Below are positions 3,422 through 54,000 of a stretch of DNA of 64,000 nucleotides, piece after piece. The translations under genes and the position numbers were made by a program. The notes below the pieces were generated by a model that was not told the origin of the DNA, made no database searches, and was given only the letters and a program-made list of their open reading frames with translations. Source of the DNA: Octopus vulgaris (taxonomy: Eukaryota). The stretch is taken from the NCBI GenBank assembly GCA_951406725.2, contig OX597818.1, forward strand, positions 50,344,001-50,408,000, written 5' to 3'. Every line of letters begins with the position of its first letter. Positions within the stretch are counted from its first letter, which is position 1.

Positions 3422-3625
3422 TTAGTCTTCAACGATATGATAAATGTTATTTCTGTTCCCATTGTTCACTTGGTGTTCTTCATTATAGTCCGTAAAAAAC
3501 AGTTTATTATATTGCGGAGAAGATTTTTCTTCTAGGACTTCATATGATTCCTCACTAATGTTTCTTGTGTTCGTTGTTGTAGTACTTTTATCCGATTCCT
3601 TACTATTGCAGAAGGAAGAAGATAT
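3422..3625 (-). CDS. Receptor gene A, terminal cytoplasmic exon with ITAM
   Basis: Acceptor ttttattttattttag, phase 0, 68 codons to TAA: ISSSFCNSKESDKSTTTTNTRNISEESYEVLEEKSSPQYNKLFFTDYNEEHQVNNGNRNNIYHIVED*. Confidence 0.85.
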   Translation of the reverse strand: MSSSFCNSKESDKSTTTTNTRNISEESYEVLEEKSSPQYNKLFFTDYNEEHQVNNGNRNNIYHIVED

Positions 3626-5152: not shown

Positions 5153-5246
5153 CATGGTTTCATCGATTTCTTCATACGTATGATTGTTCTCATTTACATA
5201 TTGAACATTAGAACTGGCGAATTTATCATCTGGAGTTGAGTTTCGT
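5153..5246 (-). CDS. Receptor gene A, cytoplasmic exon 1 (YVN, YEEI)
   Basis: Acceptor tatttcctccag, donor ATG|gttagt, 94 nt, phase 2-0 fits both neighbours. (K)RNSTPDDKFASSNVQYVNENNHTYEEIDETM. Confidence 0.85.
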
Positions 5247-7421: not shown

Positions 7422-7644
7422 TTTCGCCTAAATGATATCCATAAAATTAAGAAGAGAATAAATATGATCGCTAATACCAAAAAAGTGGCCAAAGAAGCAA
7501 CCAGTGTTATAGTGGTTTCTGGTGTTAGAGTAGTGGTTGTTGTTGACTCCTTTTCCGAATGGGTATCTAAAAATGTTTGTATTTTATCCCTGTTCCAAGA
7601 TTTAAAATCTTCGGGCCAGATCTCACGGCATTGAGTGTCATTAA
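7422..7644 (-). CDS. Receptor gene A, stalk + transmembrane exon
   Basis: Acceptor ttttttttctcacag, donor AA|gtaagt, phase 1-2. FNDTQCREIWPEDFKSWNRDKIQTFLDTHSEKESTTTTTLTPETTITLVASLATFLVLAIIFILFLILWISFRR: Thr-rich stalk, ~23-aa hydrophobic helix, basic stop-transfer. Confidence 0.9.
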
Positions 7645-10211: not shown

Positions 10212-11779
10212 TTGCGACCAACATGTTGTCACCAGAAAAGTTTTTATCAAAGTTGTTTTATGTTCTATAATTGGTATTGTCTGAGATGTTGGTGTAATTT
10301 GAGAGGATAATACAAAAGTTATGGATGATTTAGTGATTTACTGCAAAACCCATGGCGGCCAAAATGATCAGAACGGTTAAAAAGATAACAAAATAATCAA
10401 ATATGACAGAGAATACTGGAATTATTTAATATTTAGTGTGAAGCCATTTAGCTTCAATCACACTTTGACATCTTTGACTGCATGAAGAAATTAAATTTCA
10501 ATTTCTTGCTAGGTAATCTTATTCCATTCTTCCTGAAGGGCATTCCATAATTGCTCGGTTGTTTTAGGATTTCTGGCTTTCGAATGTTCTCTTAGAATAT
10601 TCCACACATTTTCAATAGGATTGAGATCTGGGCTTTTGAGCAGGCCAATCCATAATAATAACCTTTTCAGCCTTGAGGAAGTTCATGACCACCTTAGCCT
10701 TGTGACACGGGGTATTGTCCTGCTTGAATATGGGTGGTCGCTTAGTTGAATTTCTCAGCACAGGCAAGACATGATCTTTTACAAGTTGTTTATAAACTCC
10801 TGCATTTACCTTTCCGTGTTATCGCACCAATGAGCCCACACCATCTCCAGATATCATCCCCCAAACCATGACACTTCATCCACCGAATTTAACACTAGTC
10901 TTAAGGCATTTAGGCGACAATTTTTCACTTACTTTTCAACGAACGTACCTTTTCCCATCTGAGTCAAATAACATAAACTTAGATTCATCACTGAAATGCA
11001 CCGTTTGCCATTTTTCTTGCGACCACAACACATGTTCGGTTGCAAAGGTAAGACGACACTTTTTATTTTTGGAGCTGATCAGTGGCTTCACTACAGGTGA
11101 TCTTGCTTGTAGGTTATGTTCAACTAAACGATGAGACACAGTTTTTCGAGATAACGTTTTCTTCAGTACAATGCTAATTTCCCGAGAAACAGCAGCAGCA
11201 GTTTTAAATCTGTCCTTTTTAACCAACTTTACCATAGCACGATCTTCTCTCTTGGTCGTTTTTCTTGGTCTACCTGTAGACTTTCTTGCTTCACACGAAC
11301 CACAATCATCAAAGACCTTAAGAATACCGTGAACAACACTTTTTGACTTGTTAACAATCTTTGCAATAGACCCAATACTTAAATTATCCTTCTTTCGAAG
11401 CTTAATAATATGCTGACGAATTGGTAACGGAGTAAGTGGCATTATATTAACAAAGTACACTGTAGATGTTCTTACTAATGTTTAGCAAACGAACCATCAC
11501 GTAAACAAATTCAAAACATTAGAGTTCGTCGGTTAAATATACTAAAACACGGAGTAAAAGCCACCGTTCTGATCATTTTGGCCGCCATGGGTTTTGCAGT
11601 AAATCACTAAATCATCCATAACTTTTGTATTATCCTCTCAAATTACACCAAAATCTCAGACAATAACAGTTAATATTTATTGTCCGTGAAAATTATAGAA
11701 TATAAAACAACTTTGATAAAAACTTATACCTACTTTTCTGGCGAAAACAATGCCGTTCTGAACATTTTGGCCGCAACTG
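10209..11779 (-). mobile_element. Tc1-family DNA transposon, full length, disrupted transposase
   Basis: HTH, GRPRKTT and FSDESKF motifs in ORF 10936-11460; the DDE remainder has frameshifts. Long TIRs beginning cagttgcg; TA target. Truncated in copy B (~42105-42767). Confidence 0.92.
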
Positions 11780-14383: not shown

Positions 14384-14572
14384 ATGGAATATTGATGCCG
14401 CATCGAATCCAAGGTTTATCCTGGCATTGTCCAACATCAAGCACACAGGTTCTATTTAGCGCAATTGTACCAGCTCCACAATGCATATGATTACCGTGGT
14501 TATAATATTTCGTGCAAATGCATGGATCAATTTGGAAAGGAAGGCTCTTTTTCGAATTACAAATGGTAAAAT
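14384..14572 (-). CDS. Receptor gene A, Cys-rich ectodomain exon (chitin-binding type-2/peritrophin-A-like)
   Basis: Acceptor ttttattttttcag, donor T|gtaagt, 189 nt symmetric phase 1-1, open frame xFTICNSKKSLPFQIDPCICTKYYNHGNHMHCGAGTIALNRTCVLDVGQCQDKPWIRCGINIP with 7 Cys. DPxxCxKYY...CxxGT resembles CBM14 (resemblance only). Confidence 0.85.
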
Positions 14573-23388: not shown

Positions 23389-24575
23389 ACCGTATAGAGG
23401 GACCAGAAGTGAAACAATTGGGGCATCGATAGACTTTCATTATTCATATGGTGGGTGGAGTGCAGATTTTGGTAAATCTCAGAAATTATATCACTTCAAG
23501 GTACAACGAAGAAAGGCTCTGATTTGAAAGTCAGTGCTCAACTGTGTTCAAGGGAGTCAGACTTGTTATAGAAATCTCATTAACTCTGCTTTTGAGCTTT
23601 TTAAACTGCTTGATATAGCAGCAAAATATTTTCACCATTTATACTCAGCCATCCATTTAAGCAACCACGAGGACAGCCGTTCAAGAATTTGGACCTGGAT
23701 ATCTCCATTTCCAGGAACTTCGAAGATCACATCCCAGTGGTGTCGGGCGTCAACGAAGAGCCCTCGACTACAAGACGACCAAAGTTTTTTTTTCTAAGGT
23801 CTTGGGGAAGTTTTTTTTTCTAAGGTCTTGGGTTTCCCGCCCCTAAGCCCTAGACCATCAACTAATAACCCTTACCCGTCTTGTTGCTTAATAACAACAA
23901 CAACAGCAACAGCAGAAGAAGAAGAAAAATAAGAAGAAGAAGAAGAAGAAGAGGCGGAGGAGGAAAAAAGAATAATAATAATAATAAGAACAACAACAAC
24001 AACAACAAAAACAACAACAACAAAGACTCTTTCAAGGGAAGAATGAGGTGGGAAAGTGCTTGACAATGCTAACGAATTAAAGATCGATCAGAAATTGTAC
24101 GGAATCGAACAGGAAATTTTACGGAATCGAAGAGGAAAAAAAGCCCTTAAAAAATTAGAAAATTATATTTACCTTTTCCCATTTTCAGTTCAATAAGTAG
24201 AAAAAGAAAGAAAAAGAAAATTAAGAAATAGTTTCAAATTGATGGTTCCTTGGTTGAACGGGATTAAATAGAAATAAAATGAAAAGTTAGCCAAGATATT
24301 AACTGTAAGTGTTTTAAGCCTCTTCTGTGGTTGAACAACCTCCACAAACAGAAACAAACTAAACAATGAAAGAATGAGGAGAGAAATAATTAATACAGCA
24401 AAAATTCCCACCGGATTCTCTCTCTCTCTCTCTCTTTGTTTCCCTCTCTCACTGTTTCTCTCTATCTATCTGTCTCGCTCTCCCCCTCTCTCTGTTTTTT
24501 GTTTCTAACCACTCCCTTCTGATCATTTACTCGCGTGGTTCCTAGTTTTTTTCCTGACGTTCCCCTTCTATTTAC

Positions 24576-28918: not shown

Positions 28919-31636
<2,718 letters not shown>

Positions 31637-36156: not shown

Positions 36157-37322
36157 CTGTCTGACAACTCGATATCGTTATATGTAGCACTTATCGTCCA
36201 TTAGATGCTCCAAATCATACGGACCTATTCGAAGACTGTATTGGAAGAATAGAAATCTTAACTAATCTAGAACAACACAACAGTGTACTTCTTATGGGAG
36301 ACTTCAGCCTGTCCAACGTATGATGACCTGAGGAACTTTTCCTCTCAGAAATGACACAATGTACTCAAAATCAGGTGGAAATCCCTGCTCAGCCTCGCCA
36401 ACATAGAGCAAGTAATACTCTAACCAACCAGGCAGATAGTAGACTTGATCTCTGTTTCACAAACAATATGGATTTCGTCCATAACGTGAAAGTTACACCG
36501 ACGCTAGTCCCGGATGAAATGTAATAGTGCTGACCAAGTATAAACCAAAAAAATCCGAAGACGATCGGCTTATGGGGAGTACCTAAAAACTATCCAATTT
36601 CAATCTTTATAAAGCAGACTGGAAATCAATTGAGAAAGAGATAATCAAATAAGATTGGCCTCAATGTCTCGGTACTTCTGACAACATGAAATTCAAAGAA
36701 TTCGTGCTCATAATGCAAGATTGTCCCAGAGACAAAGGCCACTACACATAGGAGCAAGATTCTCAGAGAGGTAACAGTTCTTATGAGATGGCGTACAAAG
36801 AATTCATACTGCCCCATCAAAGAAGAGGGCGTAACACTGTCTATAGATGATGTCAACGTAAACTTAGCTGCTGGTCCAAAATAATTGTAATAGATTTCAT
36901 CGTCGGAATCTATCTTTAATCTCCCTTCTGCCAACATTTCAAATATAAGATTTCTTTCCTGAAGATCGGGGCTCGTCTCATCTGACGTTGGAATCAATTT
37001 CCTCCGTCTTCTGGGAAGAAATCTCACATTTTTAAAATCTAAAAACAAAAAGGAAGTGAGATAACTCCAATAATGGTATCACGTGATATATTATATTGAA
37101 AACCATCAAGACATTGTTATCATCTATCCATAGGTTTTATTTATCGAACAGTAACAGATTGTTACTTGTAACAGATTTTGATTAATTATTAAGTTATAAA
37201 ACGTATCGTTATCACCAGTAAATTTTATTTTTCAACGACGTGATTAAGAGTTATTTCTGTTCTCTGTTCACTTGGTCCAGTTCGTTAAACGCCAGTTTAT
37301 TATATCTTGGAGAAGACTCTTC

Positions 37323-37421
37323 TTATAGGTTTTCATATGTTTTCTCACCGATGTTTCTTGGGTTTGTTGTTGTTGAAGTGTTTTTATTCGCTATACTACT
37401 ATTGCAGAAGGAAGTAGTTGT
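37323..37421 (-). CDS. Receptor gene B, truncated terminal exon ending YENL*
   Basis: Acceptor tttatttcattacag; TTTSFCNSSIANKNTSTTTNPRNIGEKTYENL*, followed past the stop by EESSPRYNKL (relic second ITAM half). Confidence 0.8.
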   Translation of the reverse strand, partial: TTTSFCNSSIANKNTSTTTNPRNIGEKTYENL

Positions 37422-37961: not shown

Positions 37962-38055
37962 CGTATTTTCATAGATTTCTTCATTCGGATGATTATTCTC
38001 ATTTACATTTTGAACATTTGAACTGGCGAATTTATCATCTGGAGTTGAGTTTCGT
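37962..38055 (-). CDS. Receptor gene B, cytoplasmic exon 1
   Basis: 94 nt, phase 2-0, RNSTPDDKFASSNVQNVNENNHPNEEIYENT; both A tyrosines lost, new IYEN gained. Confidence 0.8.
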
Positions 38056-38910: not shown

Positions 38911-39157
38911 TTTCGTCTAAATGATATCCATAAAATTAAGAAGAGAATAAATATGATCGCTAATACCAAAAAAGTGGCCAAAGAAGCAACCAGTGTTAGA
39001 GCAGTGGTTTCTGGTGTTAGAGTAGTGGTTTCTGGTGTTAGAGTAGTGGTTGTTGTTGACTCCTTTTCCGAATGGGTATCTAAAAATGTTTGTATTTTAT
39101 CCCTGTTCCAAGATTTAAAATCTTCGGGCCAGATTTTACGGCATTGAGTGTAATTAA
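38911..39157 (-). CDS. Receptor gene B, stalk + transmembrane exon
   Basis: 247 nt = A exon + in-frame 24 nt (extra TLTPETT-type unit). Splice sites intact; TM sequence matches A. Confidence 0.85.
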
Positions 39158-41980: not shown

Positions 41981-42035
<55 letters not shown>

Positions 42036-42812
42036 TAATCAAGAAAACAAAAAGACAACAACGCAAGGATGTGGAACAAATAAAGTATTATTGGACGCTC
42101 AGTATTATTGGAGCTGATCAGTGGCTTCACTACAGGTGATCTTGCTTGTAGGTTATGTTCAACTAAACGATGAGGCACAGTTTTTCGAGATAACGTTTTC
42201 TTCAGTACAATGCTCATTTCCCGAGAAACAGCAGCAGCAGTTTTAAATCTGTCCATTTTAACCAACTTTACCATAGCACGACCTTCTCTCTTGGTCGTTT
42301 TTCTTGGCCTACCTGTAGACTTTTTTGCTTCACACGAACCACAATCATCGAAAACCTTAAGAATACCGTGAACAACACTTTTTGACTTGTTAACAATCTT
42401 TGCAATAGACCCAATACTTAAATTATCCTTCTTTCGAAGCTTAATAATATGCTGACGAATTGGTAACGGAGTAAGTGGCATTATATTAACAAAGTACACT
42501 GCAGATATTCTTACTAATGTTTAGCAAACGAACCATCACGTAAACAAATTCAAAATATTAAAAGTTCATCGGTTAAATATACTAAAACACGGAGTAAAAG
42601 CCACCGTTCTGATCATTTTGGCCGCCATGGGCTTTGCAGTAAATCACTAAATCATCCATAACTTTTGTATTATCCTCTCAAATTACACCAAAATCTCAGA
42701 CAATAACAATTAATATATATTGACCGTGAAAATTATAGAATATAATACAACTTTGATAAAAACTTATAGAGAAGACATGAAATATGATTTTTTCTCTTAT
42801 TCTGTCAATTTA

Positions 42813-45923: not shown

Positions 45924-46113
45924 ATGGAATATTGATGCCGCATCGAATCCAAGGTTTATCCTGGCATTGTCCAACATCAAGCACACAGGTTCTATTTAGC
46001 GCAACTGTACCAGCTCCACAATGCATATGATTACCGTGGTTATAATATTTCGTGCACTTGCATGGATCAATTTGGAAACGAAGGCTCTTTTTCGCATTAC
46101 AAATTGTTAAAAT
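45924..46113 (-). CDS. Receptor gene B, Cys-rich ectodomain exon (190 nt; +1 nt relative to A)
   Basis: Same splice sites as A. Reads ILTICNAKKSLRFQIDPCKCTKYYNHGNHMHCGAGTVALNRTC... only if entered in phase 0; in phase 1 it hits TAA after a few codons. Confidence 0.7.
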
Positions 46114-51000: not shown

Positions 51001-54000
51001 GCGGAGGAGGAAAAAGAATAATAATAATAATAAGAACAACAACAACAACAACAAAAACAACAACAACAACAAAGGTGGGAAAGTGCTTGACAATGCTAAC
51101 GAATTAAAGATCGATCAGAAATTTTACGGAATCGAACAGGTAAAAAGCCCTTAAAAAATTAGAAAATTATATTTACCGTTTCCCATTTTCAGTTCAATAA
51201 GTAGAAAAAGAAAGAAAAAGAAAATTAAGAAATAGTTTCAAATTGATGGTTCCTTGGTTGAACGGGATTAAATAGAAATAAAATGAAAAGTTAGCCAAGA
51301 TATTAACTGTAAGTGTTTTAAGCCTCTTCTGTGGTTGAACAACCTCCACAAACAGAAACAAACTAAACAATGAAAGAATGAGGAGAGAAATAATTAATAC
51401 AGCAAAAATTCCCACCGGATTCTCTCTCTCTCTCTCTCTTTGTTTCCCTCTCTCACTGTTTCTCTCTATCTATCTGTCTCGCTCTCCCCCTCTCTCTGTT
51501 TTTTGTTTCTAACCACTCCCTTCTGATCATTTACTCACGAGTTTCCTAGTATTTTTCCTGACATTCCCCTCTATTTACACTTCCTATGAAACGAGCAAAT
51601 GACAATATAACAGAACCAGACGATAAACAAAACACTTCGCTTAACATCCAGATAGTACAGTTTATAAGAGGCGCTCATTCAGTCATGCGCAAACATGCAT
51701 TTCATACGCAATAACAAAACTGAACGCCATGAATCACCTTGGACGACCATTACACAATACTCCTTCCATAATCCACGACAAACATCACTAATTCCACCTT
51801 TCATTTCCCCCTCCTCCATCATCATAATCATCATCATCGATAACAGCAGCATCAGTGGAGGCGCAATGGCCCCGTGGTTAGGGCAGCGGACTCGCGGTCG
51901 TAAGAACGCGGTTTCGATTCCCAGACCGGGCATTGTGAGTGTTTATTGAGCAAAAAACACCTAAGCTCCACGAGGCTCCGGCGGGGAGGGTGGTGAACCT
52001 CACTGTACTCTTTCACCACAACTTTCTCTCACTTTTTCTTCCTACTTCTGCCACAAAGCAGAGGAACCATGGTGTAACCCACTATGGTGTGGTAAACTTT
52101 CAGACCCTAGTCTGATGGTTCAGCTCTCCACCCGTTAAAAGCCACCTTTTAGGGAATGAGGATAACAACGTAGCTTTCGCGCCCGTGCAACCGCCAGTCT
52201 ATCACGTGTGGTGGGTGGATCTTCAAGTTGCCACACGCATTCTTAGTAGCTTAGAGTAGGCTCGAATTAGAGATTATTCTTTGTGGCTAATGGCGTGAGT
52301 CCTGATTGGAAGAAGACAGCAGCATCACCACCATAATCACTAGCAGCACTAGCCGTTCAAGAATTTGGACCTGGAGATCTCCGTTTCCAGCGACTTCGAG
52401 GGCCACCTCCCAGTGGTATCAGGCGTCAACGAAGAGCCCTCGACTACGACCAAAGTTTTTTTTTTCCAAGGTCTGGGGTCTCCCGCCCCTAAACCCTAGA
52501 CCATCACCTTAATCACCCTTACCCGTCTTGTTGCTTAACAACAACAACAACAACCAACAGCACTAGCGCCACCACCGCCACCGTCGTCCAACTTTTCTAC
52601 CATCGTCAAAAGAAACAAAATCAGCAGCAGCAGCCCACCAACCCCCTCCGCCACCGCCACCACTACCACCACAACCAGCAACAACAACAATACCATGCCT
52701 GTCTCTCCTAAACATGGAAAATAATTTTATAAAATCCAATTTGTAGTTTTTGCATTCATTCAATATAGCTTACGCAAGCCTTGCGTGCTTTGCATTCAGA
52801 CAGGAAACGCTTTCAAAGCGTTATTTAGGGGGTTCACTCGACAGCGCAGCCAAATGGTATCAAGTCGGCCTATATGCAGTGACCCCTAATAGAGGGTAAG
52901 ATGGATTGTATCGAGACGACAGTTTAGAATTGTCGCATCATAATCCCGTTCATGCTCAAGCCACGTTCGGAAAGAACCTCATAGCCACAAAATATTACCA
53001 CAGCTACTAATATTATCAACGTAGACTTCGCTGATGCTCCATTCTGTTTAAGCAATTCAGGCAAACCATTGCATAAATGTGGTGAGAAACCGAGGTGTAT
53101 AAAGAAACACTTGTATTCGCAAATGTTACGGTAAGAATTTTAAAGCGGCGAGTTGGTTGAATAGTTAGCACACCGGGCAAAACACTCAGCGGTATTTCGT
53201 CTGCCGTTACGTTCTGAGTTCAAATTCCGCCGAGGTCGACTTTGCCTTTCATCTTTTCGGGGTCGATTAAATAAGTACCAGTTACGCACTGGGGTCAATA
53301 TAATCGACTTAATCCGTTTGTCTGTCCTTGTTTGTCCTCTCTGTGTTTAGCCCCTTGTGGGTAGTAAAGAAATAGGTATTTCGTCTGCCTTAATGATTTG
53401 AGTTCAAATTCTGCCCATGTCGACTTTACCTTTCACCCTCCAGAGGTCGACCAAGCAAGTACCAGCTGAATACTACGGTCCAATGCGATCGACTTAGCCC
53501 CCACAACCTGCTGGTCTTGTGCTAAAATTTGAAGGAGGCAGCGAGCTAGTAGAATCGTTACTGCACCGAACAAATTACTACCGGCATTTTGTCCATCTTT
53601 ACGTTCTGGGTTCCAATTCCACCGAGGTCGGCTAAGCCTTTGATCCTTTTGGTGTCGATAAAATAGGTACCAGTTAAATACTGAGGTTGATGTAATCGAA
53701 TTAAGTTCCTGCTCCACCCGTTCGAAATTAATGGCCCCGTCCCAAAATTTGAAAACAATATTAGGATAAGAATTGATAACCTGCCATTCTTTAAACAAAG
53801 CGTTGATAAGGTGGACTATTACAGCAACAAAGCCTTAGCTGACTGCAGCTTTGCGGAGAAAAATTCTTACGCACCCAACTTAAATCAACTACCGCCCAGG
53901 AAGGGACTCACAAAAATGTTCTGCTTCGCATCCGCTTTTTTCCCTAAGCGAGAATTCCCGAAGGATGCAGACCACAAGAAAATGATAAAAGTTCTGACAG

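What the first reader, a model, noticed from the sequence alone, without database searches (positions are those of the whole stretch)
37962..38055. Tyrosine-motif rewiring in copy B cytoplasmic exon 1
Seen: same 94-nt exon and splice sites, but QYVNE becomes QNVNE and TYEEIDETM becomes PNEEIYENT. Both A tyrosines are lost (TAT>AAT twice) and a new tyrosine is gained (GAT>TAT) in a YEN context. The terminal exon also changes YEVL to YENL. Inference: B swaps Src/Syk-type docking for two YxN (Grb2-type) sites, a pattern that looks more like selection than decay.
Basis: partly seen in the sequence, partly recalled or inferred. Interest (0 to 1): 0.75.

Follow-up and report, generated by a model that had tools for sequence, protein, structure and literature searches.

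The report
Octopus receptor pair with rewired tail
An octopus gene copy keeps its twin's outer domain but has lost the family's standard activating tyrosine signals and carries only motifs predicted to bind the adaptor Grb2, so it is likely a second, differently wired partner of an immune-type receptor, though this genome's version may be broken.

Summary
There are four close copies (A, B in the window; C, D beyond it) of an octopus single-pass membrane gene. A's first tyrosine is an A-specific gain and is itself a YxN site. A, C and D carry YEEI plus an ITAM (YxxL-x7-YxxL). B is a chimera: A-type ectodomain, C/D-type tail. B is spliced in public runs. Neutral simulation rarely gives two YxN sites (P 0.0003-0.003, motif chosen after the fact); dN/dS is uninformative. 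A and B ectodomains group by species, not by paralog, as in gene-converted paired receptors. Against function: this assembly's B has a +1 frameshift in exon 2 (untested with reads). Verdict: real, likely selected ITAM-to-YxN rewiring in an undescribed octopod receptor pair; binding and protein untested.

The parts
37962..38055 (-). Copy B exon 4 (first cytoplasmic exon, 94 nt): NEEI in place of YEEI (codon 37985-37983), new YENT (Tyr codon 37973-37971, Asn codon 37967-37965)
   Evidence: both splice joints seen in 4 of 4 runs
37323..37421 (-). Copy B exon 5 coding part: ends YENL (37337-37326) then TAA (37325-37323); the second YxxL lies beyond the stop
   Evidence: spliced contigs identical to B across the stop in runs X10 and X13
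38911..39157 (-). Copy B exon 3: last ectodomain Cys, Thr-rich stalk repeats, transmembrane helix, FRRK; A-type until about 38970
   Evidence: helix 108-142 in the model of A
45924..46113 (-). Copy B exon 2, Cys-rich ectodomain; 190 nt vs 189 in A, +1 base near its 5' end breaks the frame from exon 1
51177..51186 (-). Copy B exon 1 coding end (M-G-N, phase 1)
   Evidence: matches the start of O. sinensis P0017
37000..38970 (-). About 1.9-2 kb tract in which B is C/D-type, flanked by A-type sequence on both sides (inferred gene-conversion tract; ends approximate)
   Evidence: informative-site track
5153..5246 (-). Copy A exon 4: YVNE (A-specific gain, YxN) and YEEI
3422..3625 (-). Copy A exon 5: ITAM YEVL-x7-YNKL (3544-3500), then YNEE and YHIV
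7422..7644 (-). Copy A exon 3 (stalk and transmembrane helix)
14384..14572 (-). Copy A exon 2 (Cys-rich ectodomain)
24173..24182 (-). Copy A exon 1 coding end (M-G-K); five exons translate to the 239-aa protein P0001

Best explanation
Copy B is a spliced paralog of an octopus single-pass ITAM-motif protein that joins A's ectodomain to a C/D-type tail without YEEI or a complete ITAM, and it likely acts as A's paired partner, predicted to recruit Grb2-type adaptors through two or three YxN sites. Steps: (1) shown: A and B form a tandem duplicate; B's tail region is C/D-type between A-type flanks; (2) inferred: a conversion or crossover put the C/D tail on B; (3) shown: B alone lacks YEEI and has YENT and YENL in two species, and the second YxxL is missing through a stop (O. 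vulgaris) or a frameshift to YDNW (O. sinensis); (4) inferred: selection favoured this motif switch before the two species split; (5) inferred: recurrent exchange keeps the A and B ectodomains alike while they diverge fast between species, so both would see the same ligand; (6) untested: on ligand binding A, C and D would dock Src-family and Syk/Shark kinases, whereas B would only scaffold Grb2-SOS-Ras/ERK or compete for ligand and dampen A. The allele in this assembly is likely a null or N-terminally shortened form.
For: Four copies found in the genome. Chimeric pattern: 30 sites group A with B in exon 3; in exon 4, the two tail introns and exon 5 B groups with C/D (B-C 24 of 853 vs B-A 217 of 853 intron differences, the latter inflated by poorly alignable sequence); A-like again 3' (B-A 22 of 1053). 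YEE[IV] is present in 11 of 13 proteins examined, including the distant paralogs at 24% identity and the same exon of the distant O. vulgaris paralog, and absent only from the 2 B proteins. YxN share of tail tyrosines: B 2 of 2 and 3 of 3; A 1 of 6; all 9 others 0. Neutral simulation, 400,000 runs per setting with the intron mutation spectrum: P(two or more YxN) 0.0003-0.0010 from D's tail, 0.0007-0.0026 from an outgroup-like tail. Only 6-8 of 666 single-base changes create a YxN, and the family has realised three of them plus one by frameshift. Both tail joints in 4 of 4 organism-A runs; B-exact spliced contigs in 2 of 4 (two studies); a spliced YENT+YENL contig without the stop in organism B run X15; intact 237-aa O. 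sinensis B model. Ectodomain exon: 10 sites group by species, 0 by paralog, of 60; A differs between species at 20 of 60 ectodomain residues and 0 of 98 tail residues, p=4e-10; trees agree (support 82-90 for the ectodomain forks, 96 for the B tail clade). SH2 fragments in the genome hit Src-family, Csk, SHP2, Abl and, weakly, Syk.
Against: +1 frameshift in B exon 2 in this assembly: the exon-1 frame stops after 8 codons and the 180-aa annotated protein needs the third downstream ATG; not checked with reads. dN/dS on the B branch 1.1-1.9, not different from neutral. The exon-vs-intron excess falls to p=0.084 after polarising, and to p=0.46 when all three lineages are pooled. YxN was picked after seeing the data; any shared +2 residue arises in 4-7% of simulations, and the simulation ignores conversion and indels. 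Organism B differs from the window by only 1 of 178, 1 of 190 and 2 of 300 intron bases, so sharing the motifs across species is no test of constraint. In runs X2 and X6 no B-exact spliced contig was among the listed pieces, and X2's main joint contig has D-like letters. One genome per species; O. sinensis A and B are merged in one RefSeq locus with chimeric isoforms. A Grb2 orthologue was not pinned down (ambiguous). No protein, phosphorylation, ligand or tissue evidence.
Confidence: 0.55

Rival explanations
1. B is a transcribed, decaying duplicate: loss of YEEI, the stop and the frameshifts are relaxation, and the YxN motifs are a coincidence in an Asn-rich, AT-rich tail.
For: Three disabling-type changes among B alleles (stop, -1 at 37296, +1 in exon 2); dN/dS near 1 after polarising; with outgroup DEN and YEDL each YEN needs one base change.
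Against: Simulation P at most 0.0026; O. sinensis B has an open 237-aa frame; both tail truncations spare the two YEN motifs; spliced B contigs in three studies.
Confidence: 0.25
2. B is a functional decoy: selection removed YEEI and the ITAM to silence signalling while keeping A's ligand site; the YxN sites are by-products.
For: Every B sequence read through that region lacks the second YxxL by stop or frameshift; ectodomain kept like A's; copy C also shortened its tail in O. vulgaris.
Against: A decoy needs no new tyrosine, yet B gained one (Asp>Tyr) in a YxN context, and its other tyrosines moved to YxN too.
Confidence: 0.15
3. The motifs were copied in from an unseen older paralog or allele, or from the terminal exon, so no B-branch selection is implied.
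For: The locus is a conversion mosaic; the 5 B-specific changes lie in the last 35 nt of the exon.
Against: No fifth close copy in two genome searches (4 matches each, lower bounds); the two YEN sites share only an 8-nt core; neither O. bimaculoides tail has YEN.
Confidence: 0.05

Closest known systems
Mammalian paired receptors kept alike by gene conversion (Siglec-11/Siglec-16; PMC5701461, abstract read)
   Same: Tandem paralogs whose ligand-binding exon is homogenised within each species while the signalling ends differ; a non-functional allele of one partner exists.
   Different: No Ig domain, no homology; the contrast is ITAM+YEEI vs YxN-only, not activating vs ITIM; shared ligand and co-expression untested.
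LAT/NTAL/LAX transmembrane adaptors (PMC3291652, passages read: three distal LAT tyrosines in YXNX bind Grb2 SH2)
   Same: Single-pass protein, no evident signal peptide, tail whose tyrosines are two to three YxN motifs, one of them YENL-like.
   Different: B has a roughly 100-residue Cys-rich ectodomain, no juxtamembrane CxxC palmitoylation motif seen (feature recalled), no homology; it derives from an ITAM-bearing paralog.
Oyster CgIgR ITAM-Syk-ERK receptor (PMC6994640, passages read) and Hydractinia Alr proteins (10.1101/2022.03.04.482883, passages read)
   Same: Invertebrate single-pass proteins with YxxL/I-x6-9-YxxL/I tails; Alr genes cluster and vary in tail motifs; copy A fits the consensus.
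   Different: Those have Ig domains; in the Alr text 'Grb2' has 0 occurrences; B lacks the ITAM.
Biomphalaria GRC/PTC2 hyperdiverse single-pass transmembrane clusters (PMC7494358, passages read)
   Same: Molluscan cluster of lineage-specific single-pass proteins with very divergent orthologs.
   Different: No homology tested or found; here divergence is confined to the ectodomain while A's tail is invariant; no link to parasites shown.

Membership tests
ITAM-bearing receptor (copy A, C, D) | Cytoplasmic YxxL/I-x6-8-YxxL/I after a single transmembrane helix | tested here: met
   8 of 13 proteins match, including A, C, D
ITAM-bearing receptor (copy B) | Both YxxL halves in frame | tested here: not met
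   Stop after YENL or YDNW frameshift; 0 of 2 B proteins match
ITAM-bearing receptor | Phosphorylated motif binds Syk/Shark tandem SH2 | not testable with these tools
   Only a 41-aa SH2 fragment with Syk as best hit, E=1.5e-10
Paired receptors | Similar ectodomains, different signalling tails, linked genes | tested here: met
   A/B differ at 4 of 60 ectodomain and 19 of 62 tail residues; tandem
Paired receptors | Ectodomains homogenised within species | tested here: met
   10 species-grouping vs 0 paralog-grouping sites of 60; one genome per species, moderate tree support
Paired receptors | Opposing activating/inhibitory (ITIM) signalling | tested here: not met
   No I/L/V/S-x-Y-x-x-I/V/L in B's tail (motif list); membership of the classical kind not claimed
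Paired receptors | Same ligand and same cells | not testable with these tools
   A- and B-type joints occur in the same bulk runs; no cell or ligand data
LAT/NTAL-type transmembrane adaptor | Several YxN Grb2 sites | tested here: met
   2 of 2 and 3 of 3 tail tyrosines; motif only
LAT/NTAL-type transmembrane adaptor | Very short ectodomain, juxtamembrane cysteines, homology to LAT (features recalled) | tested here: not met
   About 100-residue ectodomain; no LAT hit in Pfam, PDB or 1.84-billion-protein search
CBM_14 chitin-binding (Peritrophin-A) domain | Pfam PF01607 above cut-off | tested here: not met
   No hit for A; distant paralog P0014 13.7 bits vs cut-off 22.1, E=0.071; model pLDDT 39.9, uninformative

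The most novel reading that the evidence does not exclude
Octopuses evolved their own paired-receptor system in which an ITAM receptor with a fast-changing Cys-rich ligand domain gained a partner whose tail was turned, by a conversion and a few point changes, into a multivalent Grb2 scaffold like LAT, with null alleles segregating: a recent, traceable origin of a LAT-type tail from an ITAM tail in an invertebrate.
Probability: 0.3. Interest if true: 0.78.

Novelty: new variant of a known kind. Interest (0 to 1): 0.56.

Why it matters
Cephalopod immune or self-recognition receptors are barely described. This family has the marks of one: an ectodomain that differs at a third of residues between close species over an invariant ITAM tail, and a twin with a different tail. 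It also offers a small natural experiment on how SH2-docking specificity is rewired: three or four base changes separate a YEEI/ITAM tail from a YxN-only tail, and both can be tested with short phosphopeptides. If B is only decaying, the ITAM family itself remains a useful candidate.

Tried and rejected
Pfam on exons and full proteins: no family above cut-off. ESM Atlas: best scores 0.82, unnamed mollusc clusters, leads only. PDB profile search: 0 hits at E<=5. AlphaFold model: mean pLDDT 39.9, only the transmembrane helix confident, so no fold search was run. The run search listed no holder on record as RNA: no RNA holder listed; RNA status rests on exact intron skipping. Contig depths (B-type 33 and 32 vs A-type 9 and 8 in X10, X13) were not used as expression levels. 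Run X7 showed no B-type exon-4 contig and X14 did not cover exon 4: absence not interpretable. Search for short database proteins that might show an intact O. vulgaris B exon 2: 1 hit, from O. bimaculoides, uninformative. P0015 (fish Ig protein, E=1.9e-6) rejected as a transmembrane/low-complexity match. dN/dS rejected as underpowered. 'Stop is an assembly error' rejected. Grb2 orthologue: 6 of 28 SH2 matches were compared with PDB, none clearly Grb2. No complex job was run: phosphotyrosine cannot be modelled. Earlier-findings look-ups returned nothing. Left out of the motif count: P0002 and P0005 (near-duplicate isoforms), P0013 (no tail), P0015; 13 of 17 proteins counted.

Full report
Setting. 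The window is G000:C5:50,344,001-50,408,000 of a 2.8-Gb genome. A protein identical to copy A's translation is recorded as Octopus vulgaris on a contig of the same length. Window 1-26,000 and 32,200-54,500 are a tandem duplicate, with 0.9-3.9% mismatches in most blocks and 5-15% in the tail region. DNA and protein searches of the genome each gave 4 matches: A, B and two more copies, C and D, 40-60 kb beyond the window. A distant fifth paralog with the same exon layout lies at C5:128.35 Mb.

The gene. Five coding exons with GT-AG ends give, for A, a 239-aa protein: a hydrophilic N-terminus with no evident signal peptide (by inspection), a Cys-rich ectodomain, a Thr-rich stalk, one transmembrane helix followed by basic residues, and a 98-residue tail. 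A profile search of 1.84 billion proteins gave 7 hits at E<=0.001: 6 octopod proteins and one fish protein that I reject as a compositional match. No Pfam family passes its cut-off; the distant paralog has a sub-threshold CBM_14 hit. All named records are 'uncharacterized' or 'hypothetical'.

The observation. The exon and the listed residues are as described. With four copies and two other species the polarity changes. The first tyrosine is found in 3 of 12 aligned proteins, all copy A; it is an A gain and makes YVNE, itself YxN. Of 9 A/B differences in the exon, 4 are A-specific and 5 B-specific. The B-specific ones are a synonymous change, Tyr>Asn destroying YEEI, Asp>Tyr, and Thr>Asn (two bases). 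O. bimaculoides has DEN and YEDL in its C/D-type tail, so each YEN may need only one base change (inference).

In A, YEVL is followed after 7 residues by YNKL, which fits the ITAM consensus given in PMC6994640 and the Alr preprint (passages read); C and D have the same. In B a TAA follows YENL directly. O. sinensis B reads YENT..YENL-EEESSPR-YDNW, a frameshift that removes the second YxxL and makes a third YxN. A contig of organism C carries both the stop and a one-base deletion at 37296; organism B run X15 has no stop and shows the deletion; some organism-A contigs show the deletion too. YEE[IV] is kept in 11 of 13 proteins and lost only in the two B proteins; YEEI is described as a high-affinity Lck-SH2 ligand in PMC10525366 (passages). 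LAT's three distal YXNX tyrosines bind Grb2 (PMC3291652, passages).

B is a chimera. Informative sites group B with A through most of exon 3 (30 sites), with C/D from about 38,970 to 37,000, and with A again downstream. Both tail types exist in O. bimaculoides and the tail tree groups by paralog type, so much of the A/B tail contrast is old and was imported (inference).

Expression. In 4 of 4 organism-A runs guessed to be RNA, contigs skip exactly the two tail introns; in X10 and X13 (two studies) a single spliced contig matches B with 0 differences over 37191-37421 and 37204-37421 respectively plus 37962-38049, through both YEN motifs and the stop. X15 gives a spliced YENT+YENL contig. In X2 and X6 the listed pieces do not include a B-exact spliced contig. 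The stop is in the last exon, so decay of the mRNA is not expected (established knowledge).

Selection. For: B-specific changes 5 of 94 vs 11 of 1140 intron columns (p=0.005); P(two or more YxN) 0.0003-0.0026 in neutral simulations. Against: p=0.084 after polarising, p=0.46 with all lineages pooled; dN/dS 1.1-1.9, not significant; the motif was chosen after the fact and any shared +2 residue arises in 4-7% of runs; the two species are too close (about 0.6% in introns if organism B is a guide) for shared motifs to show constraint. The strongest counter-evidence is new: B's exon 2 has one extra base in this assembly, so the frame from exon 1 closes after 8 codons and the annotated 180-aa protein starts at the third downstream ATG. 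O. sinensis B is open there. I could not test this base with reads.

Paired-receptor signature. Between O. vulgaris and O. sinensis copy A differs at 20 of 60 ectodomain residues and 0 of 98 tail residues; within species A and B differ at 4 and 9 of 60; 10 sites group by species and 0 by paralog. Because the B tail is shared by both species, exchange of the ectodomain exon between A and B is required in at least one lineage (inference). This parallels Siglec-11/16, where conversion keeps ligand exons alike and a null allele is common (PMC5701461, abstract), and resembles the hyperdiverse single-pass clusters of Biomphalaria (PMC7494358, passages). Limits: one genome per species and merged RefSeq models.

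Mechanism. Most likely (0.55): ligand clusters A, C or D, a Src-family kinase phosphorylates YEEI and the ITAM, Syk/Shark docks; B meets the same ligand but offers only YxN sites, so it would feed Grb2-SOS-Ras/ERK or dilute A's signal. Motifs, splicing and ancestry are shown; kinases, binding, ligand and immune role are inferred. Src-family, Csk, SHP2, Abl and weak Syk-like SH2 fragments are in the genome; Grb2 was not pinned down.

Print record. No paper in the held library contains any of six locus identifiers of the family, nor 'cephalopod' + 'immunoreceptor tyrosine' + 'octopus'; 'octopus' + 'ITAM' + 'hemocyte' gave 4 unrelated listings; none of the 10 listed (of 45) for mentions cephalopods. 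Supplements and most subscription journals were not searched, and expression tables there could list these genes.

Verdict. A real feature, more intricate than reported: a likely selected switch from an ITAM/YEEI tail to a YxN-only tail in one partner of an undescribed octopod receptor pair, with a live chance that B is decaying. New variant of a known kind; interest 0.56.

Noticed in passing
G000:C5 about 50,426,000-50,500,000 (L006-L014): Copies C (+ strand) and D (- strand) have two short ectodomain exons unlike A/B's one; C's tail ends before the last tyrosine through a one-base insertion that B also has.
   Followed up: partly
L033-L034 (G000:C5:128.35-128.36 Mb): Distant paralog with the same exon layout and QYEEIK, no ITAM; orthologs in O. 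bimaculoides and Argonauta hians.
   Followed up: partly
window 39000-39070 and 7500-7540: The Thr-rich stalk is a 21-nt repeat whose copy number varies among paralogs and species, changing ectodomain height.
   Followed up: no
window 37229 region: B, C and D have an AATAAA shortly after the ancestral stop that A lacks; B-exact contigs end near 37190-37205, A-type contigs run to about 36914 in B coordinates.
   Followed up: no
window 29432-31328 (+): Reverse-transcriptase ORF (Pfam RVT_1) with a downstream ORF, inside a 459-bp inverted repeat (29000-29453 / 31082-31538), between copies A and B; Penelope-like by recall.
   Followed up: partly
window 10936-11481 and 42035-42520 (-): Tc1/mariner transposase fragment (Pfam HTH_Tnp_Tc3_2 for the first) in the same intron of A and B, so older than the duplication.
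   Followed up: partly
G000:C3:157.80-157.89 Mb (L035-L037): Three neighbouring SH2 exons; the one tested is Csk-like.
   Followed up: partly
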